Source: Fibrobacterota bacterium
Lineage (GTDB): Bacteria; Fibrobacterota; Fibrobacteria; UBA11236
DNA length: 64,000 nt
Assembly (NCBI GenBank): GCA_023249635.1
Contig: JAHFCH010000011.1
Span: forward strand, 671-64,670
Reading direction: 5' to 3'
Shown here: piece by piece, positions 8,021-63,973 of the stretch
Layout: every line of letters starts with the position of its first letter
How positions within the stretch are numbered: position 1 is the first letter of the stretch
Notes under the pieces: model-generated
What the model was told of the DNA's origin: nothing
Databases searched by the model: none
What the model saw: the letters and a program-made list of their open reading frames with translations, nothing else
Made by a program: the position numbers and the translations under genes

Positions 8021-8200
8021 TTTGTTTACGCGGCGAGCATGGAGTCGCGAAGCGGTTCCATGGCGAAGCCGCCAAGTTGGATTCAATTTGCGGCGAGCGT
8101 GGAGTTGCGAAGCAACTCCATAGCGAAGCCGCCACTGTTGCTCTTAAATGCGGCGAGCGTGGAGTTGCGAAGCAACTCCATAGCGAAGCCGCCACTGTCA
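8021..8200. repeat. 3 x 60-bp tandem direct repeats, each carrying a 9-bp perfect-stem hairpin (TGGAGTTGC-gaa-GCAACTCCA)
   Basis: Units at 8021, 8081 and 8141; copies 2 and 3 are near-identical and copy 1 is diverged; they start right after the stop of the TPR gene and end 17 nt before the TolB-like start. Confidence 0.85.
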
Positions 8201-21437: not shown

Positions 21438-22513
21438 AACCGGCCGCTGCCAAGCCGCCCTCCTTCGTCGTACATAATTCCAATTCCGAAATCGGCGGAG
21501 CCGAAGCCAGTCTGCTTGCGGCTGTGGCGGTAAACCTCGCGACCGTAGCCGATGCCCGACCGCTTTTCCTGGTACCCGCCGAAGGCGGCCTTTCCCGCGC
21601 CCTTACCGCGCGCGGCTGGGAGTTCCGCGTCCTGCCATGGCCTCGCGGCCTCGCAGCCCTGACCCAGCGGCGTTTGTGGTCGCTGCCCTTGGCTTTGCCG
21701 GGACTGTTGCCTTACCTGTGGCGCTTGCGGGGGGTTTTCCGGGATGCGGACTCCATCTGGTCCAGCGGCGTCAAAAGCCATTTCGCCTGCCTGCTGCTTT
21801 CGCCCTGGCTGCGCGGCCGGCTCCTCTTTGACGTGCGCGATTTCTTCCGCAACCGGCTCATCCGCCGCTCCCTGGCCTTCGCCTCCGCGCGCTTCGGCTG
21901 CCGTATCGCCGCCAACAGCCGGGCCGTGGCCGCGGATTATCCCGGCGCCGAGGTACGTTACCCGCAGGTTACGCTGCGACGTCCCGCCGTGGACCGCCGG
22001 GTTCCTTCTGGACGTCGCGTAATCGCCCACTTGGCCTACTTCGCCCCCTACAAGGGCCAGCATCTGTTCCTGGATTGCGCCCGGGCCCTGCTCGACGCGG
22101 GCGTGGACGCCGAATTCCTGATCATCGGGGACGTGATTTATCCCGCCGAGTCGTATGCGCGCTATCGCGAAGAGCTGTTCGCCCAGGTAGGCCGCTTGCG
22201 CCTTAACGAGCACGTGCGTTTCCTGGGGAAGCTGGATGGCCCGGAGGCGGTACAGGAGATACTGGAGCGGACCGATCTGCTGCTGCACTGCACCACCGAA
22301 CCCGAACCCTTCGGCCGCGCGGTGATGGAAGCCCTGCTATGCGGGTGCGCAGCGGTATGCCATGGGGGCAGCGGCGTGTGTGAGGTGACGGAAGCGGAGC
22401 GGGGATTCCCGGGGTGGATGGGACCGCTCGGGAAGGTGTTGGGGGAGGAGTACGTGAGGGTGCGGTTGAGTGACGATATCGTCGGGCGTCGGGCGTCGGG
22501 CGTCGGGCGTTAA
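21434..22513 (+). CDS. Glycosyltransferase family 1 (GT4-type); 3' end runs into a repeat element
   Basis: GTG start overlapping the upstream stop (GTGA); C-terminal GT1 core (EPFGRAVMEALLCGCAAVC); last ~12 codons (..VGRRASGVGR) are encoded by GTCGGGC heptads of the palindromic element. Confidence 0.6.
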   Translation: MKPAAAKPPSFVVHNSNSEIGGAEASLLAAVAVNLATVADARPLFLVPAEGGLSRALTARGWEFRVLPWPRGLAALTQRRLWSLPLALPGLLPYLWRLRGVFRDADSIWSSGVKSHFACLLLSPWLRGRLLFDVRDFFRNRLIRRSLAFASARFGCRIAANSRAVAADYPGAEVRYPQVTLRRPAVDRRVPSGRRVIAHLAYFAPYKGQHLFLDCARALLDAGVDAEFLIIGDVIYPAESYARYREELFAQVGRLRLNEHVRFLGKLDGPEAVQEILERTDLLLHCTTEPEPFGRAVMEALLCGCAAVCHGGSGVCEVTEAERGFPGWMGPLGKVLGEEYVRVRLSDDIVGRRASGVGR

Positions 22514-22599
22514 AACTGTGGATTGGTCCTTGTGCGGATTCCCGTTTTAACGCCCGACGCCTAGCCGCGCAGCGGCGTACGCCCGACGCCCGACGATAT
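22475..22599. repeat. MITE/REP-like palindromic element, GTCGGGC-heptad family, copy 1
   Basis: Perfect 20-bp terminal inverted repeats (GATATCGTCGGGCGTCGGGCG .. CGCCCGACGCCCGACGATAT); nested perfect 16-bp inverted repeat (CGTCGGGCGTTAAAAC/GTTTTAACGCCCGACG); extra small hairpin GCCGCgcaGCGGC; four tandem GTCGGGC heptads. Confidence 0.75.
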
Positions 22600-22632
22600 G
22601 CCTGAACGGGAATATCTCATTCCAGCACCGGA

Positions 22633-33432: not shown

Positions 33433-34308
33433 CTACGCCCGCGCGGCCGCGAAGCCCCACCATCCGTCCATTTCCGTTTCCGCCACGATGCGGAAATGGG
33501 CGCGCTCGCGCCAGGCCAGGAAAAAGGGTTTGTCCTCGAGCCTTTGCCCGGAGACGAGGAAGACTCCTTCCCCCCCGGGAGAGCGGGGACCCATCGGCGC
33601 CAGGCGGCCGGGAAGTTCCTCGCGGAACGGCCAGAGTTCCGTACGGATCATATTGCAGATGACGATGCCGAAAGCGGCCCGGGGTGAGAGGGCGTCGGTG
33701 CCGCCGATCAAGGTACGGAAGCGGCAGTCGGGCGGCGGGGGATTGAGGAGCAGGTTTTCGTTGAGGCACGGTCCCACCACGGGATCGATGTCGAGAGCCA
33801 CCACCTCGGCGGCGCCCAACTGGGCCGCGTAGATGGCGAGGATACCCGTTCCCGTTCCGATGTCGAGAACGGAGGCTCCGCGTACGGAGACCTGCTCGAG
33901 GAGGGTCGCGGCGATGCGGGTGGATTCATGCGAACCGGTGCCGAAGGCCATCTTGGCCTCCAGCCGGATGATATGCTTGGCGCCGGCCGGAGCCTGGACC
34001 CAGGGGGGCATCACCATCAGGGAAGGGGTCACCTCCACGGGCGTTTGACGATCGCGCCAGCTGCGATCCCAATCTTCGATGCGCTCTTCGCCCCAGGCAA
34101 GGGCTACGCGTTCCCGGAACCGCTCCCGAGCCATTCCCAAATCCTCAGCGGTGGAGAAGAATCCCTTCAGCAAAACGCCTTCGGCCGAGGGCGCGGTCTC
34201 TTCGACTTCTTCCACTCCGCCGGCGCCGCATTCGAACAGTCCATCCTGGTCCAATTCGGCCTCGGCCGTAGGGGATCGGAAACAAAGCCACCAATATGAA
34301 TCCACCAA
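33433..34308 (-). CDS. prmA: Ribosomal protein L11 methyltransferase
   Basis: PrmA N-terminal W-x-E-acidic region, SAM motif VLDIGTGTGILAI, downstream ALDIDP motif. Confidence 0.8.
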   Translation of the reverse strand: MVDSYWWLCFRSPTAEAELDQDGLFECGAGGVEEVEETAPSAEGVLLKGFFSTAEDLGMARERFRERVALAWGEERIEDWDRSWRDRQTPVEVTPSLMVMPPWVQAPAGAKHIIRLEAKMAFGTGSHESTRIAATLLEQVSVRGASVLDIGTGTGILAIYAAQLGAAEVVALDIDPVVGPCLNENLLLNPPPPDCRFRTLIGGTDALSPRAAFGIVICNMIRTELWPFREELPGRLAPMGPRSPGGEGVFLVSGQRLEDKPFFLAWRERAHFRIVAETEMDGWWGFAAARA

Positions 34309-34429
34309 CCCTCACAAACCCCGGAAAACGGCCCGGACGGGCAAATATAGGCACATTTCCTTTCATCTTCCGGCCGGTTTTATATATTCCAGAGTCCACT
34401 TCCGGCGGCCATCCGCACCAAGGAGTCCA

Positions 34430-35440
34430 GTGAGCGAATCCCTTACCGCGGTCCTATCCTATGAGCAAGTGCTCAAGGATGCCCGGGAGTGCGTCGCATC
34501 CGCCCTTGATGAGGTGCATAAGCTGATGCTCGAGGTGGCGGACAGCGCTCCGGGCAAGCTCTCCGGACAACTGAATTCCCTGCTGGTGCGCAAAGGCAAG
34601 CGTATCCGCTCCACTTTCCTGTTCCTGATGGCGGCCAGCGGACGCAACGGCATTTCCGAACGCGCCATTCGCGTCGCGGCAGCCATCGAACTCATCCATC
34701 TGGCCTCCCTGGTCCACGACGACATCATCGATGACAGCGATCTGCGCCGCAACGAGAAGACGGCGCATAAGCGCTGGGGCAACCGCATGGCGGTGTTGCT
34801 GGGCGATTATACCCTGGCCAAGTCCATGGAAATGGTATGGAGCGATCGTGATCATCGGATTCCCCTGAGCCTGTCCAAGGCTTCCAGCCGCCTGATCATG
34901 GCCGAAGTGATGGAAGTGGAAGGGGCCGGCAACGCCGACCTTTCCCCTGAGCAATACTTCGCCGTCATCGAGGGCAAGACCGCGGCCCTCTTGATGGCCT
35001 GCGGGGAATGCGGATCCATCCTCGCCGGTTTCGATGACACAATGGTGCGCGCGGGATTGGAGCTGGGCCGCAATTTCGGAATGGCCTTCCAGATCATCGA
35101 CGATTTGCTCGACTTCGGCTATGGGGCCGAAAACCTGGACAAACGCACCTTTTCCGATCTCAAGAACGGCTACTTCACCCTGCCGCTCATCCTGTACTTC
35201 GAAGGCTGCGACGCCGCCGAGCGCGAACGGATGCTGACCCTGCTCGCCACGGCGGGTTCGGAAAGCACCCAGACCGAAATCAAGCGCCTGCTAGATTCGC
35301 GCATGGCCTTCCAGAAGGCGCGCGATATCGCCATCGAAAAAATCAACGCCTGTATGCCGTTCCTGGAAAGCCTGCCGGAATCGGCGGCTTCGGGACATCT
35401 GAAGAAGGTGTGTCGTTTGATGACGGAGAGGTCCGCATAG
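34430..35440 (+). CDS. Polyprenyl diphosphate synthase (IspB-like long-chain trans-prenyltransferase)
   Basis: AAGGAG RBS then GTG 34430; first DDxxD (LVHDDIIDDSDLRRN), second Asp-rich motif (IIDDLLDF); about 336 aa. Confidence 0.75.
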   Translation: MSESLTAVLSYEQVLKDARECVASALDEVHKLMLEVADSAPGKLSGQLNSLLVRKGKRIRSTFLFLMAASGRNGISERAIRVAAAIELIHLASLVHDDIIDDSDLRRNEKTAHKRWGNRMAVLLGDYTLAKSMEMVWSDRDHRIPLSLSKASSRLIMAEVMEVEGAGNADLSPEQYFAVIEGKTAALLMACGECGSILAGFDDTMVRAGLELGRNFGMAFQIIDDLLDFGYGAENLDKRTFSDLKNGYFTLPLILYFEGCDAAERERMLTLLATAGSESTQTEIKRLLDSRMAFQKARDIAIEKINACMPFLESLPESAASGHLKKVCRLMTERSA

Positions 35441-35469
35441 GCGGAACCTCCGGGGATTTGTCCGGGGAA

Positions 35470-35545
35470 AGGTTTAAGGTTTAAGGTGGGTGGGTCCCGT
35501 AGGCCCGGTCCAATTCAACCCCCTTAAACCTTAGACCTTAACCTA
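35470..35545. repeat. Palindromic element, GGTTTAA-heptad family, copy 1
   Basis: AGGTTTAAGGTTTAAGGTGGG ..30 nt.. CCCTTAAACCTTAGACCTTAACC; long imperfect hairpin between convergent polyprenyl synthase (+) and mltG (-); a near-identical family member sits at 54594-54681. Confidence 0.7.
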
Positions 35546-36637
35546 TCTCATCTTCTTCTTCCCCGGATTATCCACTCCCCGCTTCGCCCGATTCGCCGCG
35601 GCCACGTCCTTGAAGCGGACATGGTCCGAATTGTCGACGGAGAAGAAATGCTCCCGGGAGCCGTCATCCTTCGCCACGAAGTACATCTTGTCGGTTTGCG
35701 GAGGGCGCAGGGCCGCGCGCAAGGCGCCGCGTCCGGGATTGGCGATGGGGCCGGGCGGCAGGCCCGTGAACTTGCGGGTATTATACGGCGAGTCGCAGTT
35801 GAGATCCGAGACCAGCAGCGGTCCCGTAGGCTTATGCACGGCGTATCGGACCGTGGGGTCGGCGCCCAGGCTCCAGCCTTGGTTCAGGCGGTTGTAGAAG
35901 ACCCCGGCGATGGGTTCCTGCTCCGCGGGCACGGCGGCTTCCTTCTCGACGATTGAGGCCAGGGTGACCCAGCCGCGCTGCCCGTACTTCCGATACACGG
36001 GGGACGCGAGGTCGAACTCCCTTTCCACCGCCAGGAAACGGCGCGTCATCACTTTGAGGATGTCGCGTTCCGTAACCTTCCAGGGTAACACGTAGGTTTC
36101 CGGGAACAGATAGCCTTCCAGATCCGGGGCGTCCAATCCGCATGCCTTGGCGAAGGCCGGGTCGTGGACCAGGAATTCGAACTTGAGGCTGTCGAGGGGG
36201 AACTTGGCCTTGAGGATGGAGAAGATCTCGTAGGAGGCCTTCCCCTCGGGAATGGTGATCATCTGCGTCGCCATCTTGCCGCTCGTGAGCTTCCAGGACA
36301 TATCCATGGCCGAGTTGGACGGACGGACGTAGAAATAACCCGCCCGGATCTTCTTGTCCTGGCGGGTGAAGCGCAGGAAGAGGCGGAACACGGTGGCGTT
36401 GGGGATGAGGCCTTTGGCCTGGAGGTCTTGGGAGAGGGTGGCCAGGGATGCTTTGGCGGGCACTTCGTAGAGCACGTTGCCGCTAACGGGATCGGCTTCC
36501 AAGCCGGTGACCGATGCGGGCTTGGGGATGGATTTGGCGGTGAGCACCCAAATCACGGCGCCGGCAGAAACGGCGATGACCAGGAGCGCCGCCAAGCTTC
36601 CCGAAAACGAGAATCCCTTTTTCCGTTTCTTAGCCAT
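35543..36637 (-). CDS. mltG: Endolytic murein transglycosylase (YceG family)
   Basis: N-terminal TM anchor then YceG-like domain (..GYLFPETY.., ..LTLASIVEKEA..) full length. Confidence 0.8.
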   Translation of the reverse strand: MAKKRKKGFSFSGSLAALLVIAVSAGAVIWVLTAKSIPKPASVTGLEADPVSGNVLYEVPAKASLATLSQDLQAKGLIPNATVFRLFLRFTRQDKKIRAGYFYVRPSNSAMDMSWKLTSGKMATQMITIPEGKASYEIFSILKAKFPLDSLKFEFLVHDPAFAKACGLDAPDLEGYLFPETYVLPWKVTERDILKVMTRRFLAVEREFDLASPVYRKYGQRGWVTLASIVEKEAAVPAEQEPIAGVFYNRLNQGWSLGADPTVRYAVHKPTGPLLVSDLNCDSPYNTRKFTGLPPGPIANPGRGALRAALRPPQTDKMYFVAKDDGSREHFFSVDNSDHVRFKDVAAANRAKRGVDNPGKKKMR

Positions 36638-48500: not shown

Positions 48501-48515
48501 CGTGCCCTTTCCGCC

Positions 48516-50669
48516 TCAGTCCTTTTTCGCCAGGTAATTGTGGTAGTAGTGCTTGTAGTACCCGTAGGAACTATAGCCCTTGGTGATGTCCACATCGTTC
48601 AGGATGCAACCGAGCATGCGGGCGTTCACGTTGCGCAACGCCTGCAGGGTACGCGAGCTTACCGCGATGCTGGTCTTGTTCGCGCGGATCACCAGCACCA
48701 CGCCGTCCAGCTTGGTGGCCAGGATGGCGGCGTCGGTAACGGCGATGACCGGGGGGGTATCGAAAAGGATGTAGCGGAAACGCTTCTTCAGCTCGTCCAG
48801 GAAGGTGTCCATCTTCTTGGAACCGAGCAGCTCGGCCGGGTTGGGCATATAGGCGCCCGCGGTCATCACCTGCAGATTGGTTCCGGGAAGGTTGCGGCAC
48901 ACCTCGTCGAGGGTATTGGTGCCCGCGAAAAGTTCGCCGAAACCGGGACCGCGATCGAGGCCGAAAAGGTGATGGTTCACGGGGCGACGCAGGTCGGTAT
49001 CGATCACCAGGGTGGGTTCCCCCTGCTGCGCGAAGGAAAGGGCCGTATTGGCCATCGTCAGCGATTTGCCTTCGCCGGGACCGCTGCTGGTGATCAGCAA
49101 TGTCTGGATGGCCTTGTCCGGGCTGGAGAAGACGATATTGGTACGCAGCGAACGGTACGATTCCGCGACTACGCTTTCCTCGTTCTGCGGCCCCATCATC
49201 AGGCCCGGGTACTTGTTGCGTATCTGCTGCTTCTTGCCCTTGGTGAAAGTACGTTTGACCTCGATATCCGATTTCTTGGGGTTGATATGGGGGATGGTGC
49301 CCAACAGCGTCAGGCCCAGCATCTTCTCCACGTCGTCCGGCGACTTGACCGTATCGTCCATGAACTCGCGCAGGATGGAAAGCCCGATGCCGAAGACCAG
49401 GCCCACCAGCAGGGAGACCGCGTAGAAGACCATATCCTTGCGGGGCACGGGCTCGGTCGGCAGTTGGGCGTCGTCCACCAGCTTCAACCCGCCGGACTTG
49501 GATTCCAGCTGGATGGTCGCGTCTTCCAGGCGTTCCGACAGGCGCTGATGGGTGGCGATATAGCGGGCCAGCAGATTGTCGATCTGGGTCAGCTCGAACT
49601 CCTCCTGGCCCAGCTTGGGATGGTTCTCGCGGTAGGTGATGATGGCGCGCTTGAAGGCGTCCAGCCGGGCGCGCTTCATGTTCATTTCCGCTTCCGAACT
49701 CGCCAATTCCTTGCGGATGGATTGCCACTGGTTCAGCAGCCCGATGTCCTGCTGGGTATCGCTGCCCTTGGTCAGCTTCACCAGTTTGGTTTCGATTATC
49801 GCCATGTCCTGGCTCAGTTTGCTGTCGGCGGTGAGGGTGATGCCCAGGCGCATCATCTTCTCCTTCTCCTTCTCCAGCACCTTCATCTGTGCCCGCAGGC
49901 TGTCGATGGACTTCTCATTGCCGCTGGCCGCGGGCTTGTTGATGGTGTTGTCCAAGGTCTTGAAGTAGCTCCGCTTGGCTTCCAGATTGGCCTTGTCCAA
50001 TTCGAATTTCACCAGCTCCTGCTGGTAGTTCTTCTCCAAGGCATCCAGGCCCGCCGCGTCGCCGATGCTCTGGAGCGAAGAGATGTCCGACTTGCGATTG
50101 CGTTCCAGCTGGATTTCGTCGCGTTTCTTGATGCAGACCTCGATCTGCTCCTTGATGGCGTCGATGGCCTTTACCGCCTCCTCGTTCTCCACCTTGCGGC
50201 AGAATACGATGAGGCTGTCGGTGGCGACCTTTACCAGCCGGTAACTGAGGTTGGCGTTGTGGGTCTTGCTCGAAATGGTGAAGAAGGATTCCACCGTACC
50301 TTCGTCCACATGCAGGTTGTCGCTGATGAATTCCTTCTGCTTCTTGGTCACGCCCGCCTTGGCCAAATCACCTGCGGTCGCCTGTACCATGCGGTCCAGG
50401 AAGGCCTGGCTCTGGAAGATGGTCTTGTAGAATCCGATGCCGCGCTGGTTGTCGTCATTCGACAACAGCACCGAGGCCGCGTTTACAGGCGCCTTGTCCA
50501 TTACCAACTGGCTGGAGGTGATGTAATAGTCGGGCAGGCGCTTGATGAACCACCAGGTGGGCCCCAGGAACGCGGCGATGGAGAACAGCAGGATATAACG
50601 GCCCTTGATGAGGAGCCGGAAGTAGTCGCCGAACTGGAGTTCGCGTTGCGGTTTGGGCGCTTCGCTCAT
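48516..50669 (-). CDS. wzc: Polysaccharide co-polymerase / BY-kinase (Wzc-like tyrosine autokinase)
   Basis: Two TMs flanking a long coiled-coil periplasmic region; cytoplasmic P-loop (SSGPGEGKS), Walker B (LVIDTDLRRP); C-terminal Tyr cluster (GYSSYGYYKHYYHNY). Confidence 0.8.
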   Translation of the reverse strand: MSEAPKPQRELQFGDYFRLLIKGRYILLFSIAAFLGPTWWFIKRLPDYYITSSQLVMDKAPVNAASVLLSNDDNQRGIGFYKTIFQSQAFLDRMVQATAGDLAKAGVTKKQKEFISDNLHVDEGTVESFFTISSKTHNANLSYRLVKVATDSLIVFCRKVENEEAVKAIDAIKEQIEVCIKKRDEIQLERNRKSDISSLQSIGDAAGLDALEKNYQQELVKFELDKANLEAKRSYFKTLDNTINKPAASGNEKSIDSLRAQMKVLEKEKEKMMRLGITLTADSKLSQDMAIIETKLVKLTKGSDTQQDIGLLNQWQSIRKELASSEAEMNMKRARLDAFKRAIITYRENHPKLGQEEFELTQIDNLLARYIATHQRLSERLEDATIQLESKSGGLKLVDDAQLPTEPVPRKDMVFYAVSLLVGLVFGIGLSILREFMDDTVKSPDDVEKMLGLTLLGTIPHINPKKSDIEVKRTFTKGKKQQIRNKYPGLMMGPQNEESVVAESYRSLRTNIVFSSPDKAIQTLLITSSGPGEGKSLTMANTALSFAQQGEPTLVIDTDLRRPVNHHLFGLDRGPGFGELFAGTNTLDEVCRNLPGTNLQVMTAGAYMPNPAELLGSKKMDTFLDELKKRFRYILFDTPPVIAVTDAAILATKLDGVVLVIRANKTSIAVSSRTLQALRNVNARMLGCILNDVDITKGYSSYGYYKHYYHNYLAKKD

Positions 50670-51613
50670 TTTTTGATCACCGAGGTAATCACGAACCAGG
50701 CCGTGAGGAACGTGACCATGTCGCGCATGATATCGAGGGTCTTGGTCCAAGTGACCACCTTGGCGTACATGATGATCATGTCGCCCTCTCCCAGCAGGGG
50801 CAGGTCTTCGGTCTTACCGTTGTCGATGAACTTCTGCATATCCAGCACGTAGTCGGCCTTTTGCCCGCCCAGCGCCGAGATGATGCGCACCTTGTGCATG
50901 TTGGCGTCCGGGGCCGGCCCGCCGGCCAGGTAGAGCATGTCGAATACGGAAGCCTGTTCGCCCACGGGGTAGAACCCGGGCTTGCTGACCGCCCCGAGGA
51001 TTTTCACGTACTTGGATTTCTTGGAGGAGAGCAGAATGATGCGATCGCCATCGTACAAGGTCGGCAACAGCGTCAGGTCGCCCGAGCTCAGGAACTTCTG
51101 CAAGTCGTAGTAGCTGGCGTTCTCGTCGCCCTGGTTCTTACGCACGATCTTGACGCGCTGCAGGTCCGCGGTCTCGAGGCTGCCGCCGGCGGCCAGCATT
51201 ACTTCCTGCAGGCTGGCCTTGGGGGGCATCATCAGTACGCCGGGTTTCTTGACCTGGCCCAGCACGTAAAGGGAAATGGGATTCTCGGTCAATACGCTCA
51301 CCAGCACCATCGGCGACTCCACCACTTTGGCGAGTTTGTAGGTGAGGATGTCTTGCAACTCGCTGGTGGTCTTGTCGACCACGGGTACGTCCTGGTAGAG
51401 CGGGTAATCGATGGTGCCGTTATCGTTCACGCGCACGATCTGGGAAAGCTCTTTGTCGTTCTTCACCACGATGTTCAAGGTCATCCCGGATTTGATCACG
51501 GTCGCGGCGCAAGGCGAACTCAAAATGAAAAGTGAAAACTGAAAAATGAAGACGGAAAGGAATGCGAATCCTGTCCCGATGGCGGTTTGCACTTTGAAAT
51601 TTTCACTTTTCAT
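50666..51613 (-). CDS. wza: Polysaccharide export outer-membrane protein (Wza-like)
   Basis: Signal peptide, Poly_export-like region (..TLNIVVKNDKELSQIVRVNDNGTIDYPL..), two SLBB-like segments; ATGA overlap with wzc. Confidence 0.75.
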   Translation of the reverse strand: MKSENFKVQTAIGTGFAFLSVFIFQFSLFILSSPCAATVIKSGMTLNIVVKNDKELSQIVRVNDNGTIDYPLYQDVPVVDKTTSELQDILTYKLAKVVESPMVLVSVLTENPISLYVLGQVKKPGVLMMPPKASLQEVMLAAGGSLETADLQRVKIVRKNQGDENASYYDLQKFLSSGDLTLLPTLYDGDRIILLSSKKSKYVKILGAVSKPGFYPVGEQASVFDMLYLAGGPAPDANMHKVRIISALGGQKADYVLDMQKFIDNGKTEDLPLLGEGDMIIMYAKVVTWTKTLDIMRDMVTFLTAWFVITSVIKK

Positions 51614-51628
51614 TTTTCACTCTAGGCT
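51518..51628. repeat. AT-rich palindromic element, GTGAAAA-heptad family, copy 1 (spans wza start codon and signal-peptide codons)
   Basis: Left arm AAAATGAAAAGTGAAAACTGAAAAATGAAGA (encodes FIFQFSLFIL on the minus strand); right arm TTTCACTTTTCATTTTTCACTC (contains the wza ATG); 17+ bp of complementarity between arms. Confidence 0.7.
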
Positions 51629-51667
51629 TTGTGGGCTATCCGATTATACTCCCTGGATCGCTTTCGC

Positions 51668-52717
51668 CTAGGCCGGCTTGAATATGAAAGGCGATTTCAT
51701 CTCCACCGGACCTCCCGAAGAAGGCGGGAATATCCAACGTTTGATGCGACGTAAAAGCTCGGCGGTGAAATCCGGATCATCCAACGTGGTTTCCGAACGC
51801 AGTATGGATACGTTGGAAACGGTGCCATCCTCTTCGATAACTATCAATACGGATACCTTGCCCTCCAAAGCCGGATTGGATTTGAGACGTTCTTCATAGA
51901 GCATACTGACCATGGATTGTTTTTTCGAAATAAAGGCCGCGACTTCGCCCGGGCTCCGGTTTCCCGTGAATTTGGCCGACTTGTCGGTGGCGGTGGGGCG
52001 TTCCGTATCGGTCACCCCGATCTTGCCTCCCACGGCCGATTTCGCGTTCTGGAAGCCGTGGACCATGTTTTCGATGCCGCTGGTGCTGCCCACCGCTTCG
52101 CCTTTCATTACGGTTCCCTTGGGCGATCCTTCCCGGTTGAAATCGCCCTTTTTGCCGTCGAATTTCGTCAAGCCCTCGATGCTTCCCAGGCGAGCGTCGA
52201 GATCACCGAAGCCCGCGAAACGATCATGTCCGCCGCCCGGTCCCGCTTTGCCTACGGTCCTGCCGATGGCGCCCGGGCCTTTTCCGGAGAGGATGGAGAG
52301 TACGGCCGCCTTGGTGATGCGTTCCTGCACCTGGGTTATCTGCTGGGTCACGGTAGCGCGCGAACGCTCTATGCGTGCGAGGGCCGAAGCCTCCCCTTTG
52401 CCCGCGCCCGGAGCGGGACGCGCCTGGCCGGTCGAGCCCTTGGGGGCCGTCGGCTTGGGGATGGCCTTCCCCGGGGGCTTGAGCGGCATGATGATCTTGG
52501 AGACGCGATCGGAAAGATCTTCCAGGGTCGGCTTCTCGAGCTTGCTGTAGTCCACGTTGCGTATGCCCACCAGCACCATCATGAACAGCATCAGGCACGC
52601 CACGAAACTGGTAATGGCCGGAACGTCGATGTTGTCGAACATCCCGCCTTTGTAGCCGGGATTGCGATCTTCCGGCGGCCGGGGCTTGGGCGTTTCCTGT
52701 ACGGGGCTATTCGACAT
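51668..52717 (-). CDS. tonB: TonB-family energy transducer
   Basis: N-terminal TM, Pro/Lys/Gly-rich spacer, C-terminal TonB domain (GKVSVLIVIEEDGTVSNVSILRSE..). Confidence 0.7.
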   Translation of the reverse strand: MSNSPVQETPKPRPPEDRNPGYKGGMFDNIDVPAITSFVACLMLFMMVLVGIRNVDYSKLEKPTLEDLSDRVSKIIMPLKPPGKAIPKPTAPKGSTGQARPAPGAGKGEASALARIERSRATVTQQITQVQERITKAAVLSILSGKGPGAIGRTVGKAGPGGGHDRFAGFGDLDARLGSIEGLTKFDGKKGDFNREGSPKGTVMKGEAVGSTSGIENMVHGFQNAKSAVGGKIGVTDTERPTATDKSAKFTGNRSPGEVAAFISKKQSMVSMLYEERLKSNPALEGKVSVLIVIEEDGTVSNVSILRSETTLDDPDFTAELLRRIKRWIFPPSSGGPVEMKSPFIFKPA

Positions 52718-53198: not shown

Positions 53199-53731
53199 TG
53201 GTACACGCCTCCGGACAACAGGATGTTCGGGAACCTCTGCTCGCGCATCACGTCCATGGTGGTGATGATGTCCTGGTACACCACGGCGGAGTCTATCAAG
53301 AGCACCACGTCTTCGGCGCTGGGATATTCCTCCTTGAGCTTCTTCATGAACTGCCCCAGCCGCGGGTAATCGAAATCCTTCGTTCCTTTGGGAATGGGAT
53401 CGAGTTTGCGTCCCTCGCCGATCACCTGGAACCCGTTCTCGGAAACCAGCACCGTGATATCGACGCTCGGGGCCTTTTCGGTCGAATCGGCGGCCGCCTT
53501 GGCCTGGTCCTCGCCGCCGCCGCCGCTTTGGGGCGGCAGGTTGAATTTGATCACCGCCAATTGCGTGAACACCACCATGGTCACCAGGAACGAGATGAGG
53601 ATGATGAGCATGTTCATCATCGGCGTCATGTCCAGATCGATGGGCGCGCCCATGGCGGACCCGCCTTTGGACGCGATGCCTCCGCGTTGTTTACCGCCTC
53701 CGGGGGCGGGACCGGCAACCGAACCGCTCAT
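53195..53731 (-). CDS. exbD: Biopolymer transport protein ExbD/TolR (second paralogue)
   Basis: IDLDMTPMMNMLIILISFLV TM then ExbD-like domain; 4-nt overlaps at both ends. Confidence 0.7.
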   Translation of the reverse strand: MSGSVAGPAPGGGKQRGGIASKGGSAMGAPIDLDMTPMMNMLIILISFLVTMVVFTQLAVIKFNLPPQSGGGGEDQAKAAADSTEKAPSVDITVLVSENGFQVIGEGRKLDPIPKGTKDFDYPRLGQFMKKLKEEYPSAEDVVLLIDSAVVYQDIITTMDVMREQRFPNILLSGGVYQ

Positions 53732-54429
53732 CCAGCATGCCCGGTCGCGGCGGGACCGGCCGGAGCCGCGCCAGGCGGGGCTTTCGGGCTGGTCTTGCGT
53801 TGGGCATTCATGAAATTCACCAGCCGGAGCACGGTCTCATCGATTTGTTCCAGCAACTGGTTCGATTTCGATCCCAGCCAGGTGAAGGAAGCCATGCAGA
53901 TCATGGCGGCGATGAGCCCGAGCGCCGTGGCGTTCAGCGCTAAGGTGATACCGCGCGCCAGTAGTTTGCTTTTCTGGGAGGGGTCGGCGGCTTCGAGCGC
54001 GGCAAAGGCTTCCTGCAGGCCGAAAATGGTTCCGAGCAGTCCTACCAGGGTGCAAAGGTTGGCGAGCAGTCCCAGGTAATGGGTGCGTTTCTGCAAGCGT
54101 GGGACTTCCCGCAGCGACACTTCTTCCAGGGCATCCTTGATTTCTTCCGCGGTGGCGGCCTGCTCGTATTTCCAGATGCCCGCTTCCAGGATCAGGCCAA
54201 GGGGGGTGCCGGTCTGATTGCACAGCTTGCGGGCGTCGGCGATCTTATCCTTGCGGATCAAGGCCGTGGTGTCGGCCAGCAGCTTCTTGGAATTGATCCG
54301 GCATTTGATGAAGAAGAACCAGATCCGTTCGAGCATTATGGAGAGCCCCAGCCCCAAAAGGCCGAGAATCATGTACTCCACGGCCCCGCCCTCGTCGACG
54401 AATTTGGCAATTTTCATCAGGATTTCCAT
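53728..54429 (-). CDS. exbB: MotA/TolQ/ExbB proton-channel protein
   Basis: Three TMs with the conserved C-terminal channel region (..GLLGTIFGLQEAFAAL..TALGLIAAMICM..); ATG 54429 chosen. Confidence 0.75.
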   Translation of the reverse strand: MEILMKIAKFVDEGGAVEYMILGLLGLGLSIMLERIWFFFIKCRINSKKLLADTTALIRKDKIADARKLCNQTGTPLGLILEAGIWKYEQAATAEEIKDALEEVSLREVPRLQKRTHYLGLLANLCTLVGLLGTIFGLQEAFAALEAADPSQKSKLLARGITLALNATALGLIAAMICMASFTWLGSKSNQLLEQIDETVLRLVNFMNAQRKTSPKAPPGAAPAGPAATGHAG

Positions 54430-54593
54430 AAAACCTCTGGCTTTCAAAAAGGGACAGGTCGGCATTGGGATTATCGTATTCCTGGGGATTTGGAAGCAAC
54501 GGAGCGGGTGGGTGAACTCGGGGTAGGCCGGGAACTTACGGTTGGTTGACCCGCGGAAGCGCCAGGGGAAGGGGGGAGGCTGCCCCAGGGAAT

Positions 54594-54681
54594 GGGTTTA
54601 AGGTCTAAGGTTTAAGGTGGGGGAATTCAACGCCGTGAACATTCCCCTTAAACCTTTAACCTTAAACCTTAAACCTTCTTC
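54594..54681. repeat. Palindromic element, GGTTTAA-heptad family, copy 2
   Basis: GGTTTAAGGTCTAAGGTTTAAGGTGGGGG - 20 nt - CCCCTTAAACCTTTAACCTTAAACCTTAAACC; upstream of exbB and of the divergent gene starting 54817. Confidence 0.7.
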
Positions 54682-61903: not shown

Positions 61904-62030
61904 CATATCGTCGGGCGTCGGGCGTACGGGGCGAAGCGCCCCTAAGCGTCGGGCGTAAATGCGAAAATGCTCCCATTTTCTTGCATTTACGCCCGACGCC
62001 GAACGCCCGACGCCAAACGATGCGCTGCTA
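61904..62030. repeat. MITE/REP-like palindromic element, GTCGGGC-heptad family, copy 2 (inverted orientation, more degenerate)
   Basis: CATATCGTCGGGCGTCGGGCG .. GGGGCGaagCGCCCC .. CGTCGGGCGTAAATGC / GCATTTACGCCCGACG .. CGCCCGACGCCAAACGATG; same terminal 20-mer as copy 1 on the left, degenerate on the right. Confidence 0.7.
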
Positions 62031-62117: not shown

Positions 62118-62639
62118 ATGACCCAAGAGGCCACCGGCGCCGGCAAAGACGATATGCTCGAAAGCATGCTCAAAGGCCTTCGCGAGGATGAAATCGGGGT
62201 GCTGGATCGGTTTACCGACTACCAGAAATCCACCGCTCCCTTTTTCGAAAAGGTCGAAGTCGCCCACGAGTTCCTGGATCTGCTCACCTTCAAGATCAAG
62301 GAGAGCAAGTCGAAGATGAACAAGGAACTGCTCGCGCAGTTCTCCCTGGCCTTCCTCCGCCAGACCGTCCGCACCTACGGCTACAATCCCAAGTTCGTCG
62401 CCACCCAGGCCAAGGCCCTCATCACCTATTACCAGAACCAGAAGAACCTGGAGAGGGCCATCGAGGTTTGCGAATTCCTGATCCTACAGGGCATCACCGA
62501 TGACGATGCCAAGGGATTCCACGTCCGTCTCGACGAGTTGTACCGCCTCAAGCGGAAGATCGAGGAAAAGGGCGGGGATATTTCGGGGATCAGCTTTCCG
62601 ACCATGGATGATGATGAGTCGGATGATTCTGAAGAGTGA
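62118..62639 (+). CDS. Hypothetical protein with acidic C-terminal tail
   Basis: CAGGGGA RBS; 173 aa; ends DDDESDDSEE; followed by a perfect 7-bp hairpin GCAGAACtaagagtGTTCTGC. Confidence 0.45.
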   Translation: MTQEATGAGKDDMLESMLKGLREDEIGVLDRFTDYQKSTAPFFEKVEVAHEFLDLLTFKIKESKSKMNKELLAQFSLAFLRQTVRTYGYNPKFVATQAKALITYYQNQKNLERAIEVCEFLILQGITDDDAKGFHVRLDELYRLKRKIEEKGGDISGISFPTMDDDESDDSEE

Positions 62640-62663
62640 GGCAGAACTAAGAGTTGTTCTGCC

Positions 62664-62790
62664 AGGGCTAAAAGTGAAAAAGGAAAAGTGAAAAATTAAA
62701 AAATCAAATTTTTGTATGTCGCTGGCGGGTTAGGGTCCGCCCTCCCGGTTTTTCACTTTCCATTTTTCACTTTGATTTTTTAGCCCCAGC
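62664..62790. repeat. AT-rich palindromic element, GTGAAAA-heptad family, copy 2
   Basis: CTAAAAGTGAAAAAGGAAAAGTGAAAAATT .. GC-rich centre (GGCGGGttagggtCCGCC) .. TTTTTCACTTTCCATTTTTCACTTTG; the right arm is 22/24 identical to the wza-overlapping copy. Confidence 0.7.
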
Positions 62791-62808: not shown

Positions 62809-63561
62809 CTACCAATACTTGGTCAATACCTCGGGGCCGTTGCGGGTCATCGCAAGGGTATGCTCGAACTGCGCGGACAGCTTCCCGTCCCGCGTGAACA
62901 CGGTCCAACCATCATCGGCTACGAAGACGTCGGCGCTGCCTTCATTGATCATGGGCTCGATGGTGAAGACCATGCCTTCCGTGATTTTCTGCCCGCGGCT
63001 GCCCGAGCGGTAATGTAACACCATGGGGTCTTCGTGGAAGCCCCGTCCGATGCCGTGGCCGCAGAATTCGCGTACCACTCCATATCCGAACTCGTCGGCC
63101 AGGTCTTGGATGGCCGCGCCGATATCGCCGAAATGGTTGCCGGCATAGGCTACGGCGATGCCTTCTTCCAGGCAGCGATAGGTCACGTCCACCAGCTTTT
63201 GCACCTGGGGCGAAACCTTGCCCACGAACACCGTCTTGGAAGTGTCGCCGTGGTAGCCGGCCAGGGTGCAGGTCACGTCGATGTTGATGATGTCGCCATC
63301 CTTCAGCAACGTCTTACCCGGAATGCCGTGGCACACCACGTTGTTCACCGAGGTGCAGACGGACTTGGGGAAGCCATGGTAGTTGAGCGGGGAAGGGTAG
63401 GCGCCCTTCTTGACTGTATAATCATGGACGAACCGGTCGATATCATCCGTGGTGATGCCCGGCTTCACGATCTCTTCGGCGCGGGCCAGCACTTCAGCCG
63501 CCAGTACGCAGGCTTCCCGCATCAGCCCGATTTCTTTGTCCGTTTTGATTTTGATAGCCAT
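62809..63561 (-). CDS. map: Type I methionine aminopeptidase
   Basis: MAIKIKTDKEIGLMREA.. start (internal ATG 63561), metal ligands in conserved context (..DIINIDVT.., ..GHGIG.., ..FTIEPM..). Confidence 0.85.
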   Translation of the reverse strand: MAIKIKTDKEIGLMREACVLAAEVLARAEEIVKPGITTDDIDRFVHDYTVKKGAYPSPLNYHGFPKSVCTSVNNVVCHGIPGKTLLKDGDIINIDVTCTLAGYHGDTSKTVFVGKVSPQVQKLVDVTYRCLEEGIAVAYAGNHFGDIGAAIQDLADEFGYGVVREFCGHGIGRGFHEDPMVLHYRSGSRGQKITEGMVFTIEPMINEGSADVFVADDGWTVFTRDGKLSAQFEHTLAMTRNGPEVLTKYW

Positions 63562-63715
63562 ACAACCCCTGGGGTCTCCTGAATTTACAAAATTATACCT
63601 CTCAGCCGCCCGTTGCGCCGCCCACCCCCCATTGACCCCTCGGAGTGGGCATTCGCCGTCCCGCAAACGGTGGGGCGGGAAGTAATTTTTTGGGTCTTTG
63701 GGCCGGAGGAAAGCG

Positions 63716-63973
63716 ATGGTTATCGGAAAATCAAGTCGGGTCCGGGTTACGGTCAAGGTTCGGGCCGCCCTGGCCGCGGCTGCCCTCGCGCTTTGGGCGG
63801 GGTGCAAAACCGACTGCGGCGAAGCCGTCCGCATGGGCGATTTCGAATTTCTCCAAGGGAATTACGTGAACGCGGTCCGGCAATACGAAAAAGCCCTGAG
63901 GGCCGACGCGGCGTGCCGGATGATCGATGGGAGATTGGAAGAGGCTCGCCGCAAGGCGGCAGCGAGCCACTAA
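63716..63973 (+). CDS. Small hypothetical lipoprotein (TPR-like helix pair)
   Basis: GGAGGA RBS; lipobox LWAGC; 85 aa. Confidence 0.4.
   Translation: MVIGKSSRVRVTVKVRAALAAAALALWAGCKTDCGEAVRMGDFEFLQGNYVNAVRQYEKALRADAACRMIDGRLEEARRKAAASH

What the first reader, a model, noticed from the sequence alone, without database searches (positions are those of the whole stretch)
51518..51628. AT-rich GTGAAAA-heptad palindrome folded over the wza start: one arm contains the ATG, the other encodes the signal-peptide h-region; a start-codon-sequestering mRNA hairpin
On the coding (minus) strand the 5' UTR and start read ..AGAGUGAAAAAUGAAAAGUGAAAAUUUC.. The codons for the hydrophobic core FIFQFSLFIL read ..UUCAUUUUUCAGUUUUCACUUUUCAUUUUG.. 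At least 17 contiguous nt are complementary (GUGAAAAAUGAAAAGUG / CACUUUUCAUUUUUCAC-like). The ribosome-binding region and AUG of wza can therefore pair with a segment about 60-90 nt downstream in the same mRNA. The AT-rich heptads (ATGAAAA GTGAAAA CTGAAAA ATGAAGA) stand out sharply from the surrounding 65% GC DNA. Because the period is 7 and not a multiple of 3, the element is not simply a codon repeat, yet it translates into a Phe/Ile/Leu-rich h-region. Either a mobile or regulatory palindrome has been exapted as the leader-peptide coding sequence, or a translational-control hairpin (RNA thermometer, or target of an RNA-binding regulator of capsule export) is built into the gene. wza is the first gene after tonB and the first of the wza-wzc-wzx block, whose GC content looks lower than the downstream GT genes.
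Basis: partly seen in the sequence, partly recalled or inferred. Interest (0 to 1): 0.7.

Follow-up and report, generated by a model that had tools for sequence, protein, structure and literature searches.

The report
Heptad-repeat hairpin encoding wza signal peptide
The AT-rich palindrome at the wza start is real, but it is one copy of a dispersed class of seven-base-repeat hairpin elements found in many bacterial phyla, and here (and in a few other exported-protein genes) it has been taken over to encode the start codon and the signal peptide.

Summary
Observation confirmed. A 17-nt perfect complement (19 bp with a G·U and an A-U pair) joins the wza AUG region (51616-51598) to the signal-peptide core (51540-51522). 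Both arms are tandem heptads, (N)TGAAAA and TTTTCA(N).

The element is not wza-specific. A second copy lies at 62665-62786 in a convergent spacer, and the window holds at least four more heptad foldbacks built from other heptads. There the elements usually abut stop codons at operon boundaries. No Rfam family matches, and no paper in the searchable library carries this heptad. The closest described things are cyanobacterial STRR heptamer hairpins.

At wza the element is translated. The A-arm supplies ATG and the n-region, and the U-arm supplies the hydrophobic core, using codons that are rare locally. Syntenic orthologues keep it in frame and AT-rich: GC3 is 0.33-0.55 there against 0.82-0.94 in the rest of the gene. 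The helix register slips by multiples of 7. Many relatives have lost the element, including a 96%-identical one.

The same AUG-in-A-arm, signal-peptide-in-U-arm layout recurs in a GH92 and a TolC-like gene of Bacteroidota. The U-arm also encodes the signal-peptide core of a TonB-dependent receptor and a FlgA.

An RNA thermometer is not supported. Kinetic masking of the start codon is plausible but untested.

The parts
51586..51620 (-). A-rich arm. Five heptads on the mRNA strand: GTGAAAA, ATGAAAA, GTGAAAA, TTTCAAA, GTGCAAA. It holds the wza ATG (51613-51611) and codons 1-9 (MKSENFKVQ).
   Evidence: The heptad that would put TGA in frame (the fourth) reads TTTCAAA instead; the other orthologues also lack a TGA at this position.
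51598..51616 (-). 5' strand of the 19-bp helix, covering -3 to +16 relative to the A of AUG.
   Evidence: Mean P(unpaired) of -10..+6 is about 0.12-0.18 at 10-55 C.
51554..51577 (-). Small GC-containing inner hairpin in the spacer (GGGACAGGAUUCGCAUUCCUUUCC), next to the U-arm.
   Evidence: MFE structures. The second copy has an equivalent GC hairpin at the same relative place.
51521..51552 (-). U-rich arm. Heptads TCTTCAT, TTTTCAG, TTTTCAC, TTTTCAT, TTTG. It encodes the hydrophobic core VFIFQFSLFIL of the signal peptide. The 3' strand of the helix is 51540-51522.
   Evidence: The relative usage of the codons used here is low in neighbouring genes: TTT 0.03, ATT 0.07, CTT 0.07, TCA 0.00.
51503..51613 (-). 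Codons 1-37 of wza, the predicted Sec signal peptide MKSENFKVQTAIGTGFAFLSVFIFQFSLFILSSPCAA|TV. The Poly_export domain starts at residue 38.
   Evidence: The cleavage-site position aligns with the ordinary signal peptides of element-less orthologues. No signal-peptide predictor was available.
51643..51648 (-). TATAAT, inside the conserved block GGATCCAGGGAGTATAATCG, 29 nt upstream of the ATG. Possible -10 box of a wza promoter.
   Evidence: The TATAAT core is invariant, and the surrounding block nearly so, in W and L122-L124; both recur in L125-L127. No -35 partner was found by the consensus scan.
51668..51670 (-). TAG stop of the upstream tonB-like gene (51668..52717). The element begins 47 nt downstream.
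62665..62786 (.). Second GTGAAAA/TTTTCAC foldback of the same family. It lies in the spacer between the convergent genes 62118..62639(+) and map 62809..63834(-).
   Evidence: Fold z is -5.3 on both strands. It has the same polarity as the wza copy: A-arm, AT-rich spacer, GC hairpin, U-arm.
22478..22600 (.). Heptad foldback with the unit CGTCGGG / CCCGACG.
35468..35545 (.). Heptad foldback with the unit AAGGTTT / CCTTAAA, between the convergent ORFs 34079..35440(+) and 35543..36637(-).
54595..54677 (.). Heptad foldback with the unit GGTTTAA / CCTTAAA, in the divergent spacer upstream of exbB (53728..54465, minus strand).
61905..62020 (.). Heptad foldback with the unit CGTCGGG / CCCGACG, between the Ser/Thr kinase gene (ends 61878) and ORF 62118..62639.

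Best explanation
The feature is one copy of a dispersed class of heptad-repeat foldback elements. These are two inverted arrays of tandem 7-nt units around a variable spacer, here (N)TGAAAA ... TTTTCA(N). Such elements normally sit in spacers right after stop codons at operon boundaries.

The copy at the tonB|wza boundary has become part of the wza reading frame:
- A variant heptad, ATGAAAA, provides the start codon.
- The A-rich arm and spacer encode the charged and neutral n-region.
- The U-rich arm encodes the hydrophobic core of the Sec signal peptide. In every frame this arm reads F-S-L-F-T-F-H-like and carries no stop codon.

Because the arms are complementary, the mRNA necessarily folds into a helix of about 19 bp that buries the AUG and its A-rich surroundings.

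Inferred mechanism: ribosomes can load only in the short interval before the U-arm, 60-90 nt downstream, is transcribed, or when a helicase or RNA chaperone opens the stem. The hairpin would therefore gate or dampen wza translation rather than sense temperature.

Shown: family membership, coding use, conservation in orthologues, and a predicted stable AUG-masking helix. Inferred: any regulatory effect, and what the family does in general (transcript-boundary hairpin, acting as terminator or 3' stabiliser).
For: Family membership:
- There is a second copy in the window, and 11 matches against 0.03 expected.
- At least four further heptad foldbacks with other units lie in the same 64 kb.
- Across the 126 elements the median is 4 heptads per arm and a 38-nt spacer.
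- 105 gene 3' ends face an element with a median gap of 4 nt, and 38 of them have the stop codon inside the arm.
- One element pair brackets an mreBCD operon, and no transposase lies between paired copies.

Coding use:
- This ATG is the only start that gives a signal peptide ahead of the Poly_export domain at residue 38.
- 14 of 76 complete homologues have the FIFHFSF-type N-terminus, and 12 more have the same long N-terminus with an ordinary hydrophobic core.
- Seven syntenic loci keep the 39-codon N-terminus in frame.

Nucleotide-level maintenance:
- GC3 of codons 1-33 is 0.33-0.55, against 0.82-0.94 for the rest of wza. In the element-less L122 it is 0.81.
- The U-arm uses locally rare codons, and no synonymous recoding reached 19 bp.

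Hairpin:
- z-scores are -2.7 (W), -4.7 (L123), -5.3 (L124) and -3.3 (L125).
- The AUG region is about 10% unpaired in the full transcript and 63-78% unpaired in a nascent RNA that lacks the U-arm.

Recurrence:
- In L033 (GH92 lipoprotein) and L037 (TolC-like OEP) the AUG lies in the A-arm and the signal peptide in the U-arm.
- In L025 (TonB-dependent receptor) and L078 (FlgA) the U-arm also encodes the signal-peptide core, with the start outside the A-arm.
Against: - No expression data exist, so the regulatory step is inference only.
- The hairpin is not significantly more stable than shuffles in L126-L129 (z +1.1 to -0.9), and the AUG is largely open in L125-L127.
- The element is absent from a 96%-identical sibling in the same metagenome and from most homologues. 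It is therefore dispensable.
- AT-richness could be kept by slippage and concerted evolution of the repeat rather than by selection. Helix registers differ by multiples of 7 between orthologues.
- The context statistics rest on a crude home-made gene caller.
- The conserved TATAAT lies upstream of the element, not downstream. This does not fit a simple role as the tonB terminator.
Confidence: 0.72

Rival explanations
1. Passenger only. The element is a selfish or slippage-driven repeat that happened to be tolerated inside the signal-peptide coding region, because a U-rich arm encodes hydrophobic residues. It has no regulatory effect on wza. Translating ribosomes or helicases simply open the hairpin.
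For: - The element has been lost, decayed or replaced in many orthologues, including the closest one.
- Helix register and heptad number vary between orthologues.
- Heptad arrays of many unrelated sequences occur in the same genomes.
- The literature summary attributes the abundance of heptamer repeats to polymerase slippage (PMC4679880).
Against: - AT-rich, rare-codon sequence persists against GC3 of about 0.85 across orthologues with 57-70% third-position identity.
- Polar His or Gln is kept in the hydrophobic core.
- The same AUG-in-arm layout arose in unrelated genes.
Confidence: 0.35
2. Transcription-level element. The foldback is the terminator, attenuator or 3'-end stabiliser of the exbB-exbD-exbD-tonB operon, and controls read-through into wza-wzc-wzx.
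For: - Family members abut stop codons and bracket operons.
- Many have a GC-rich inner stem followed by TTTTT, flanked by an A-tract, like bidirectional terminators.
- In L128 the A-arm follows the tonB stop directly.
- Related foldbacks sit in the wzc-wzx spacer of relatives.
Against: - The consensus terminator scan finds nothing at either window copy.
- The stem here is AU-rich, has a loop of about 57 nt, and is not followed by a U-tract.
- A conserved TATAAT lies between the tonB stop and the element.
- One window copy lies in a divergent promoter spacer.
Confidence: 0.25
3. This is a dedicated wza translational riboregulator, either an RNA thermometer or the target of a capsule-specific RNA-binding regulator.
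For: The AUG is masked by a stable helix in W, L123, L124 and L128. The nucleotide-level constraint is also consistent.
Against: - The same element occurs in unrelated contexts and phyla.
- Predicted opening of the AUG region is flat from 10 to 55 C.
- The partner arm is 60-90 nt inside the CDS, unlike known thermometers.
- The element is lost in close relatives.
Confidence: 0.15
4. DNA-level protein-binding array. The contiguous heptads would be operator- or centromere-like sites for a ribbon-helix-helix type protein, as with omega protein on WATCACW heptads.
For: There is precedent for proteins that read contiguous 7-bp units in direct or inverted arrays (PMC9499535). TTCAC resembles ATCAC.
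Against: - The arrays are strictly inverted pairs of similar length with a spacer, and they lie in transcribed gene ends.
- The same architecture exists with many unrelated heptads.
- The distribution spans phyla without a known cognate protein.
Confidence: 0.05
5. The true wza start is downstream (TTG L31, GTG V39 or ATG M44) and the element is an untranslated leader.
For: In-frame alternative starts exist.
Against: - Any downstream start removes the signal peptide from a Poly_export/SLBB protein, which must be exported.
- Orthologues without the element carry an ordinary signal peptide ending at the same position.
- The frame through the element is kept open in all orthologues, including loss of the in-frame TGA heptad.
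Confidence: 0.03

Closest known systems
STRR (short tandemly repeated repetitive) heptamer hairpins of filamentous cyanobacteria
   Same: Both are tandem 7-bp units able to form a hairpin, lie in intergenic spacers (for example hupS-hupL), and occur in many copies. Their function is unknown; proposals are transcript stability or translational coupling (PMC2670836). From my own knowledge plus the title cited: STRR arrays also extend helix P12 of RNase P RNA (Vioque 1997).
   Different: The lineage is different (Fibrobacteria and about 14 other phyla) and so are the heptads (GTGAAAA, CGTCGGG, GGTTTAA rather than CCCCAGT and the like). Here one copy is translated and holds a start codon. No STRR paper could be read in full.
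TAACTGA heptamer direct repeats of Beggiatoaceae, Cyanobacteria and Bacteroidetes (MacGregor 2015, PMC4679880)
   Same: Both are intergenic heptamer arrays shared by distant phyla. The forward strand gives stops in all three frames and the reverse strand is translatable. They sit at stop and start codons. S1, Csp or CsrA binding has been proposed.
   Different: Those are almost all direct repeats (169 direct sets against 1 indirect), mostly just upstream of start codons. The elements here are inverted pairs that fold back.
REP/BIME and other repetitive extragenic palindromes
   Same: Both are dispersed intergenic palindromes at gene 3' ends and between cistrons. Proposed roles are in termination and mRNA stability.
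   Different: There is no GTAG/CGTC head and no sign of an associated RAYT. The arms here are tandem heptads of variable copy number. One copy is coding.
Rickettsia palindromic elements (RPE) inserted in frame in protein genes (from my own knowledge; not checked here)
   Same: A repeated palindromic element becomes part of an ORF and is translated.
   Different: The sequences are unrelated. Here the element supplies the start codon and a functional module (the signal peptide), and does so recurrently.
Start-codon-sequestering mRNA hairpins and RNA thermometers (fourU, ROSE)
   Same: The AUG region is paired with a U-rich strand.
   Different: The partner strand lies 60-90 nt inside the CDS, the helix is about 19 bp, and it is predicted not to melt at 10-55 C.
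Bidirectional intrinsic terminators (A-tract / GC stem / U-tract)
   Same: Many family members have exactly this core, extended by the heptads, right after stop codons.
   Different: Neither window copy passes a consensus terminator scan. The wza copy lies downstream of a promoter-like box and inside a CDS.

Membership tests
Heptad-repeat foldback / STRR-like hairpin class | Tandem array of at least 3 units of 7 nt | tested here: met
   TRF finds period 7 with 4.1 copies at 51522-51550 and 3.1 copies at 51600-51621.
Heptad-repeat foldback / STRR-like hairpin class | A second array of the complementary unit nearby, giving a hairpin | tested here: met
   The inverted repeat has 32-nt arms and 81% complementarity, with a 17-nt perfect core.
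Heptad-repeat foldback / STRR-like hairpin class | Several dispersed copies per genome, mostly intergenic | tested here: met
   Six foldbacks lie in 64 kb. Further copies lie in the gene clusters of relatives. Several hits come from the same MAG.
Cyanobacterial STRR sensu stricto | Heterocystous cyanobacterial host and the STRR consensus heptamers | tested here: not met
   The host is a Fibrobacteria MAG and the heptads are GTGAAAA, CGTCGGG and GGTTTAA.
MITE | Target-site duplication flanking the inverted repeats | tested here: inconclusive
   No direct repeat is evident at the borders of the two window copies or in the listed examples. This was checked by eye only.
MITE | Autonomous partner with the same ends around a transposase | tested here: not met
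   The four loci with two copies 1.3-3 kb apart enclose ordinary ORFs (e.g. mreB-like), none transposase-like by inspection; no family search was run on them.
REP/BIME | 20-40 nt palindrome with a GTAG or CGTC head; associated RAYT | tested here: not met
   The arm sequences lack the head motif. No search for a RAYT was made.
Intrinsic terminator | GC-rich stem with a short loop, directly followed by a U-tract | tested here: not met
   The consensus scan finds no site at 51521-51620 or 62665-62786. Many members in other genomes do have such a core.
Intrinsic terminator | Position just downstream of a stop codon | tested here: met
   Across the family the median gap is 4 nt. The wza copy begins 47 nt after the tonB stop.
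RNA thermometer | Initiation region paired | tested here: met
RNA thermometer | Pairing melts within the physiological temperature range | tested here: not met
   P(unpaired) is 0.18, 0.17, 0.14, 0.12, 0.13 and 0.16 at 10, 20, 30, 37, 45 and 55 C. This is an in-silico result only.
Any Rfam family | Covariance-model match at the gathering score | tested here: not met
   No match came from the whole window, from sensitive scans of both copies, or from 18 element-bearing loci of other phyla.
Sec signal peptide (for the encoded 37 residues) | Basic n-region, hydrophobic core, small residues at -3 and -1, mature domain directly after | tested here: inconclusive
   K2 and K7, a core GFAFLSVFIFQFSLFIL, C-A-A|TV, and the Poly_export domain from residue 38. 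The cleavage position aligns with ordinary signal peptides of orthologues. No predictor or experiment was available.
Omega/RHH heptad operator arrays | Contiguous WATCACW heptads and a cognate RHH protein | not tested
   The heptad differs (TTTTCAC). No cognate protein was looked for. Only the literature precedent was read.

The most novel reading that the evidence does not exclude
GTGAAAA/TTTTCAC heptad foldbacks may be an undescribed element class shared across phyla, kept the same in about 14 phyla because a universal factor reads 7-nt U-rich units. Cold-shock-domain proteins are the obvious candidate: CspB binds one heptamer per protein, with consensus GTCTTTG/T (PMC1904285; PMC4679880). 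Such a factor could open these hairpins to gate termination or translation. Because the U-arm encodes FSLFTFH in every frame and the A-arm easily yields ATGAAAA, the elements would also be a recurrent raw material for new signal peptides that come with a built-in start-codon mask.
Probability: 0.15. Interest if true: 0.85.

Novelty: new variant of a known kind. Interest (0 to 1): 0.6.

Why it matters
If it holds, three points follow.

1. A class of seven-base-repeat hairpins, so far described mainly as STRR in cyanobacteria and as heptamer repeats in a few lineages, would be far more widespread. One heptad is shared by very distant phyla. This asks for a common cause: a universal binding factor, a polymerase slippage rule, or horizontal spread.

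2. It would be a concrete, repeatedly observed route by which non-coding repeat DNA becomes a functional protein module. The module is a signal peptide, seen in Wza, a GH92 lipoprotein, a TolC-like protein, FlgA and a TonB-dependent receptor.

3. It would yield natural constructs in which the start codon is masked by the signal-peptide coding sequence. These make co-transcriptional translation gating directly testable.

For annotation, the result warns that AT-rich heptad islands at gene starts in GC-rich genomes are neither errors nor gene-specific riboswitches.

Tried and rejected
- **Fixed-register covariation test across eight orthologues.** Abandoned because the best helix register differs by multiples of 7 (i+j = 150, 143, 136, 129, 171), so column-wise pair counts are meaningless.
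- **RNA thermometer.** Rejected on the flat predicted melting profile.
- **Downstream start codon.** Rejected because it would leave no signal peptide.
- **Metagenome scan with a pattern built on the conserved TATAAT block plus ATGAAAA.** It gave one unrelated chance hit, and the scan was wasted.
- **Viral-contig scan with the family pattern.** Only 2 hits, so it could not be used for control-heptad counts.
- **Protein search with (FTFHFSL)6.** 2067 word-sharing candidates but only 5 significant short hypothetical proteins, which was uninformative. A first try failed because the query was too short.
- **Three-frame stop codons as the reason for the heptad.** True for GTGAAAA, but other heptad foldbacks lack stops or carry them in the second arm, so this is not a general rule (by inspection).
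- **Transposase between paired copies.** None found.
- **SD usage in relatives.** SD-like 4-mers precede 21 of 61 starts against 14% background, which is not decisive for an SD-less initiation argument.
- **Literature searches for the heptad itself.** They found nothing relevant.
- **Vioque 1997.** Not held in the library.
Full report
**1. The observation**

On the minus strand, the tonB-like gene (51668..52717; TonB_C) ends with TAG at 51670-51668. The next ORF (50666..51613, 315 aa; Poly_export plus SLBB, i.e. Wza-like) starts with ATG at 51613-51611.

Around that ATG the RNA reads GUGAAAA-AUGAAAA-GUGAAAA-UUUCAAA-GUGCAAA. Codons 21-31 read UCUUCAU-UUUUCAG-UUUUCAC-UUUUCAU-UUUG.

The 17-mer AAAAUGAAAAGUGAAAA (51616-51600) is perfectly complementary to 51538-51522. 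With one G·U and one A-U pair the helix is 19 bp.

Three tests say this is not chance:
- The 17-mer with up to 3 mismatches has 11 matches against 0.03 expected.
- Folding gives z = -2.3 to -2.7 against dinucleotide shuffles.
- None of 1000 synonymous recodings of the same peptide reaches 19 bp over the start.

The local GC minimum is 0.455, in a window of 0.61.

**2. It is not unique to wza**

All 11 matches fall in two places: the wza site, and 62665-62786. The second site is a cleaner palindrome in the spacer between the convergent genes 62118..62639(+) and map (62809..63834, minus strand). It folds with z = -5.3 on either strand. Its internal order is the same as at wza: A-arm, AT-rich spacer, small GC hairpin, U-arm.

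Tandem Repeats Finder and folding show four more foldbacks made of other heptads:
- CGTCGGG at 22478-22600 and 61905-62020.
- AAGGTTT/GGTTTAA at 35468-35545 and 54595-54677.

This genome therefore carries roughly one heptad foldback per 10 kb.

**3. The family elsewhere**

The pattern GTGAAAANNNNAAAGTGAAAAN{40,70}TTTTCAC was scanned against one genome per species.

Hits came from Bacteroidota, Acidobacteriota, Planctomycetota, Bacillota, Chloroflexota, Desulfobacterota, Gemmatimonadota, Pseudomonadota, Patescibacteria, Synergistota, Vulcanimicrobiota, Elusimicrobiota, Nitrospirota and Fibrobacterota. Locus GC ranged from 0.30 to 0.72, often with several hits per MAG. Isolates are included (Dysgonomonas gadei ATCC BAA-286, Leadbetterella sp. 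DM7).

For the 126 elements:
- The arms have a median of 4 heptads (range 1-25).
- The spacer median is 38 nt.
- The median fold energy is -35 kcal/mol.

Spacers are not conserved between phyla, but they are conserved within lineages. Examples are a Saprospiraceae type and a Bacteroidales type (by inspection).

I used a crude composition-scored ORF caller, which is a caveat for the following numbers:
- 105 gene 3' ends face an element, at a median gap of 4 nt.
- 38 of those genes take their TGA stop from the arm itself, at offsets of -4, -11 or -18.
- Only 64 gene 5' ends face an element, at a median gap of 39 nt.
- By neighbour orientation there are 16 convergent, 40 co-directional and 6 divergent cases.

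One pair of elements brackets an mreBCD operon, and no transposase lies between paired copies.

Outside the seeded elements, the same loci hold 142 further period-7 arrays with many unrelated units. Many of these are also foldbacks. Arrays with periods 5-11 other than 7 are about ten times rarer.

The constant features are therefore period 7 plus inverted symmetry. GTGAAAA is the most recurrent unit in this biased sample.

Only 2 hits were found in 2.9 million viral contigs. No Rfam family matches either window copy or 18 element-bearing loci.

**4. The wza copy is translated**

Any downstream start (TTG L31, GTG V39, ATG M44) would remove the signal peptide from a protein that must leave the cytoplasm. 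The Pfam domain begins at residue 38.

The host is a Fibrobacteria MAG. Among the 76 Wza homologues with complete N-termini:
- 14 carry the heptad-type N-terminus (MKNEKFKVQ...FIFHFSF...).
- 12 have the same long N-terminus with an ordinary Ala/Leu core.
- 50 have short ordinary signal peptides that end at the same A|(T/A)V position.

Seven syntenic loci (exbB-exbD-exbD-tonB-wza-wzc-wzx-GTs; L123-L129) keep the 39-codon N-terminus without indels.

The heptad that would place TGA in frame, the third after the ATG, is altered in every one of them (TTTCAAA, ATTCAAA and similar). That is what selection for an open frame predicts.

**5. Nucleotide-level persistence**

In the element-bearing orthologues, GC3 of codons 1-33 is 0.33-0.55, against 0.82-0.94 for the rest of wza. 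In the element-less L122 the signal-peptide GC3 is 0.81.

The U-arm uses codons that are nearly unused in neighbouring genes: TTT 0.03, TCA 0.00, ATT 0.07, CTT 0.07. It also places His or Gln in the hydrophobic core.

Third positions elsewhere in the gene are only 56-73% identical between these orthologues. The AT-rich heptads have therefore been maintained for a long time, either by selection or by the repeat's own slippage and concerted evolution.

Slippage is evident. The best helix register differs by multiples of 7 between orthologues, and heptad numbers differ.

On a neighbour-joining tree of mature regions, the heptad-type N-termini are scattered through the crown clade. W is nested among element-less P0001-P0004. 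The simplest reading is an old element at this site with repeated decay, loss or replacement.

L122 comes from the same ENA sample and its Wza is 96% identical. It shares the ATG and the flanks but differs over about 170 nt, from the tonB stop to the cleavage site. Its signal peptide is 17 codons shorter and GC-rich. This looks like allelic replacement rather than clean excision.

**6. The hairpin**

The MFE structure pairs the AUG region with the U-arm in W, L123, L124, L128 and L129, and more weakly in L127. In L125 the helix has shifted inward, and in L126 it has decayed.

| Locus | Fold z-score |
|---|---|
| W | -2.7 |
| L123 | -4.7 |
| L124 | -5.3 |
| L125 | -3.3 |
| L128 | -0.9 |
| L129 | -0.9 |
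| L127 | +0.2 |
| L126 | +1.1 |
| L122 (no element) | +0.8 |

The mean unpaired probability of -10..+6 is about 0.1 in W, L123, L124 and L128. It stays there from 10 to 55 C. In a nascent RNA ending before the U-arm it is 0.63-0.78.

So the start is masked at equilibrium, the mask is not thermolabile, and the only obvious windows for initiation are co-transcriptional or factor-assisted. That is inference. There are no expression data.

A conserved block GGATCCAGGGAGTATAATCG lies 29 nt upstream of the ATG; its TATAAT is invariant in W and L122-L127. This suggests a wza promoter whose transcript contains the whole hairpin. No -35 partner or canonical terminator was found.

**7. Recurrent use as signal peptide**

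In every frame (TTTTCAC)n reads F-S-L-F-T-F-H and has no stop. (GTGAAAA)n has TGA in all three frames, and a single G-to-A change gives ATGAAAA.

I screened the 126 elements for ORFs that start with ATG in or near the A-arm half of the element and run at least 80 residues beyond it. Besides wza there were seven. Four of the five checked against Pfam have clear domains, and all four are exported proteins:
- L033: GH92 with a lipoprotein-type N-terminus, MKSENK...FTFHFSLLTLLFVAC.
- L025: TonB-dependent receptor plug.
- L037: outer-membrane efflux protein.
- L078: FlgA.

In L033 and L037 the AUG itself lies in the stem.

**8. What the family probably does**

Position (abutting stop codons, bracketing operons), the bidirectional symmetry, and the many members with a GC stem flanked by A- and U-tracts all point to transcript-boundary hairpins acting as terminators or 3'-end stabilisers.

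However, neither window copy passes a consensus terminator scan, and one copy sits in a divergent promoter spacer.

The published parallels are:
- STRR 7-bp hairpins in filamentous cyanobacteria. Their function is unknown, with transcript stability or translational coupling proposed (PMC2670836).
- TAACTGA heptamer direct repeats shared by Beggiatoaceae, Cyanobacteria and Bacteroidetes. That paper also records that heptanucleotide repeats are the commonest long simple repeats in most genomes, and that CspB binds one heptamer per protein (PMC4679880; PMC1904285).

The U-arm unit CACUUUU shares CUUUU with the CspB consensus GTCTTTG/T. This is a lead, not a test.

Contiguous 7-bp units read by RHH proteins (PMC9499535) are a remote DNA-level alternative.

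**9. Verdict**

The 'dedicated thermometer or riboregulator' half is not.

The element is a translated member of an STRR-like heptad-foldback class. Its GTGAAAA form is widespread and, as far as the Rfam and literature searches reach, undescribed.

Whether the AUG mask regulates wza is open. I put it at about 0.4.

Noticed in passing
window 8030-8198: A tandem repeat with a 60-nt unit, 2.8 copies and 87% matches. Each unit folds into a GC-rich hairpin (GGAGTTGCGAAGCAACTCC core). It is not a heptad element.
   Followed up: no
window 62640-62663: An 8-bp GC-rich hairpin, GGCAGAAC-N8-GTTCTGCC, starts one base after the stop of ORF 62118..62639 and lies just before the second heptad foldback. No U-tract follows it.
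   Followed up: no
window 51641-51660; L122-L127 upstream of wza: The block GGATCCAGGGAGTATAATCG (invariant TATAAT core) lies between the tonB stop and the wza ATG and is largely conserved in six related loci. The element-less L122 has it too. L128 and L129 lack it; in L128 tonB and wza are 12 nt apart.
   Followed up: partly
L123:7795-7940, L126:13089-13240, L128:8136-8316, L129:8467-8655; window 48500-48516: The wzc-wzx spacer of relatives holds heptad foldbacks with GTGCAAA/GTCAAAA units. The window and L127 have only a 15-21 nt gap there, and L125 keeps a one-armed remnant (TTTGCGA repeats). This is presence/absence turnover at an orthologous site.
   Followed up: partly
L122 (ena:ERZ27280176:k141_3426848) versus window 51500-51670: Two wza alleles with 96% identical products occur in the same metagenome. 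They differ almost completely over about 170 nt spanning the intergenic spacer and the signal peptide. The gene caller also extended the L122 ORF 14 codons upstream of the homologous ATG.
   Followed up: partly
L002, L013, L080, L095, L097, L099, L103, L113 (Bacteroidaceae/Prevotella loci): In these loci the heptad palindrome extends outward to an inverted GCAAAGGTA...TACCTTTGC. On each outward-facing strand this reads like the Bacteroidetes -7 promoter motif TAnnTTTG (from my own knowledge). That would mean terminator-like hairpins flanked by outward-firing promoters.
   Followed up: no
L006, L035, L091, L110, L111, L112 (Saprospiraceae / Haliscomenobacter / Chitinophagales): These share a lineage-specific conserved spacer, ACCAAAnGGTGAAATCCAAATGGTGTAcCTGC, between the GTGAAAA arms, across different MAGs. 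It suggests a sub-family of common descent or a functional loop.
   Followed up: no
   Followed up: no
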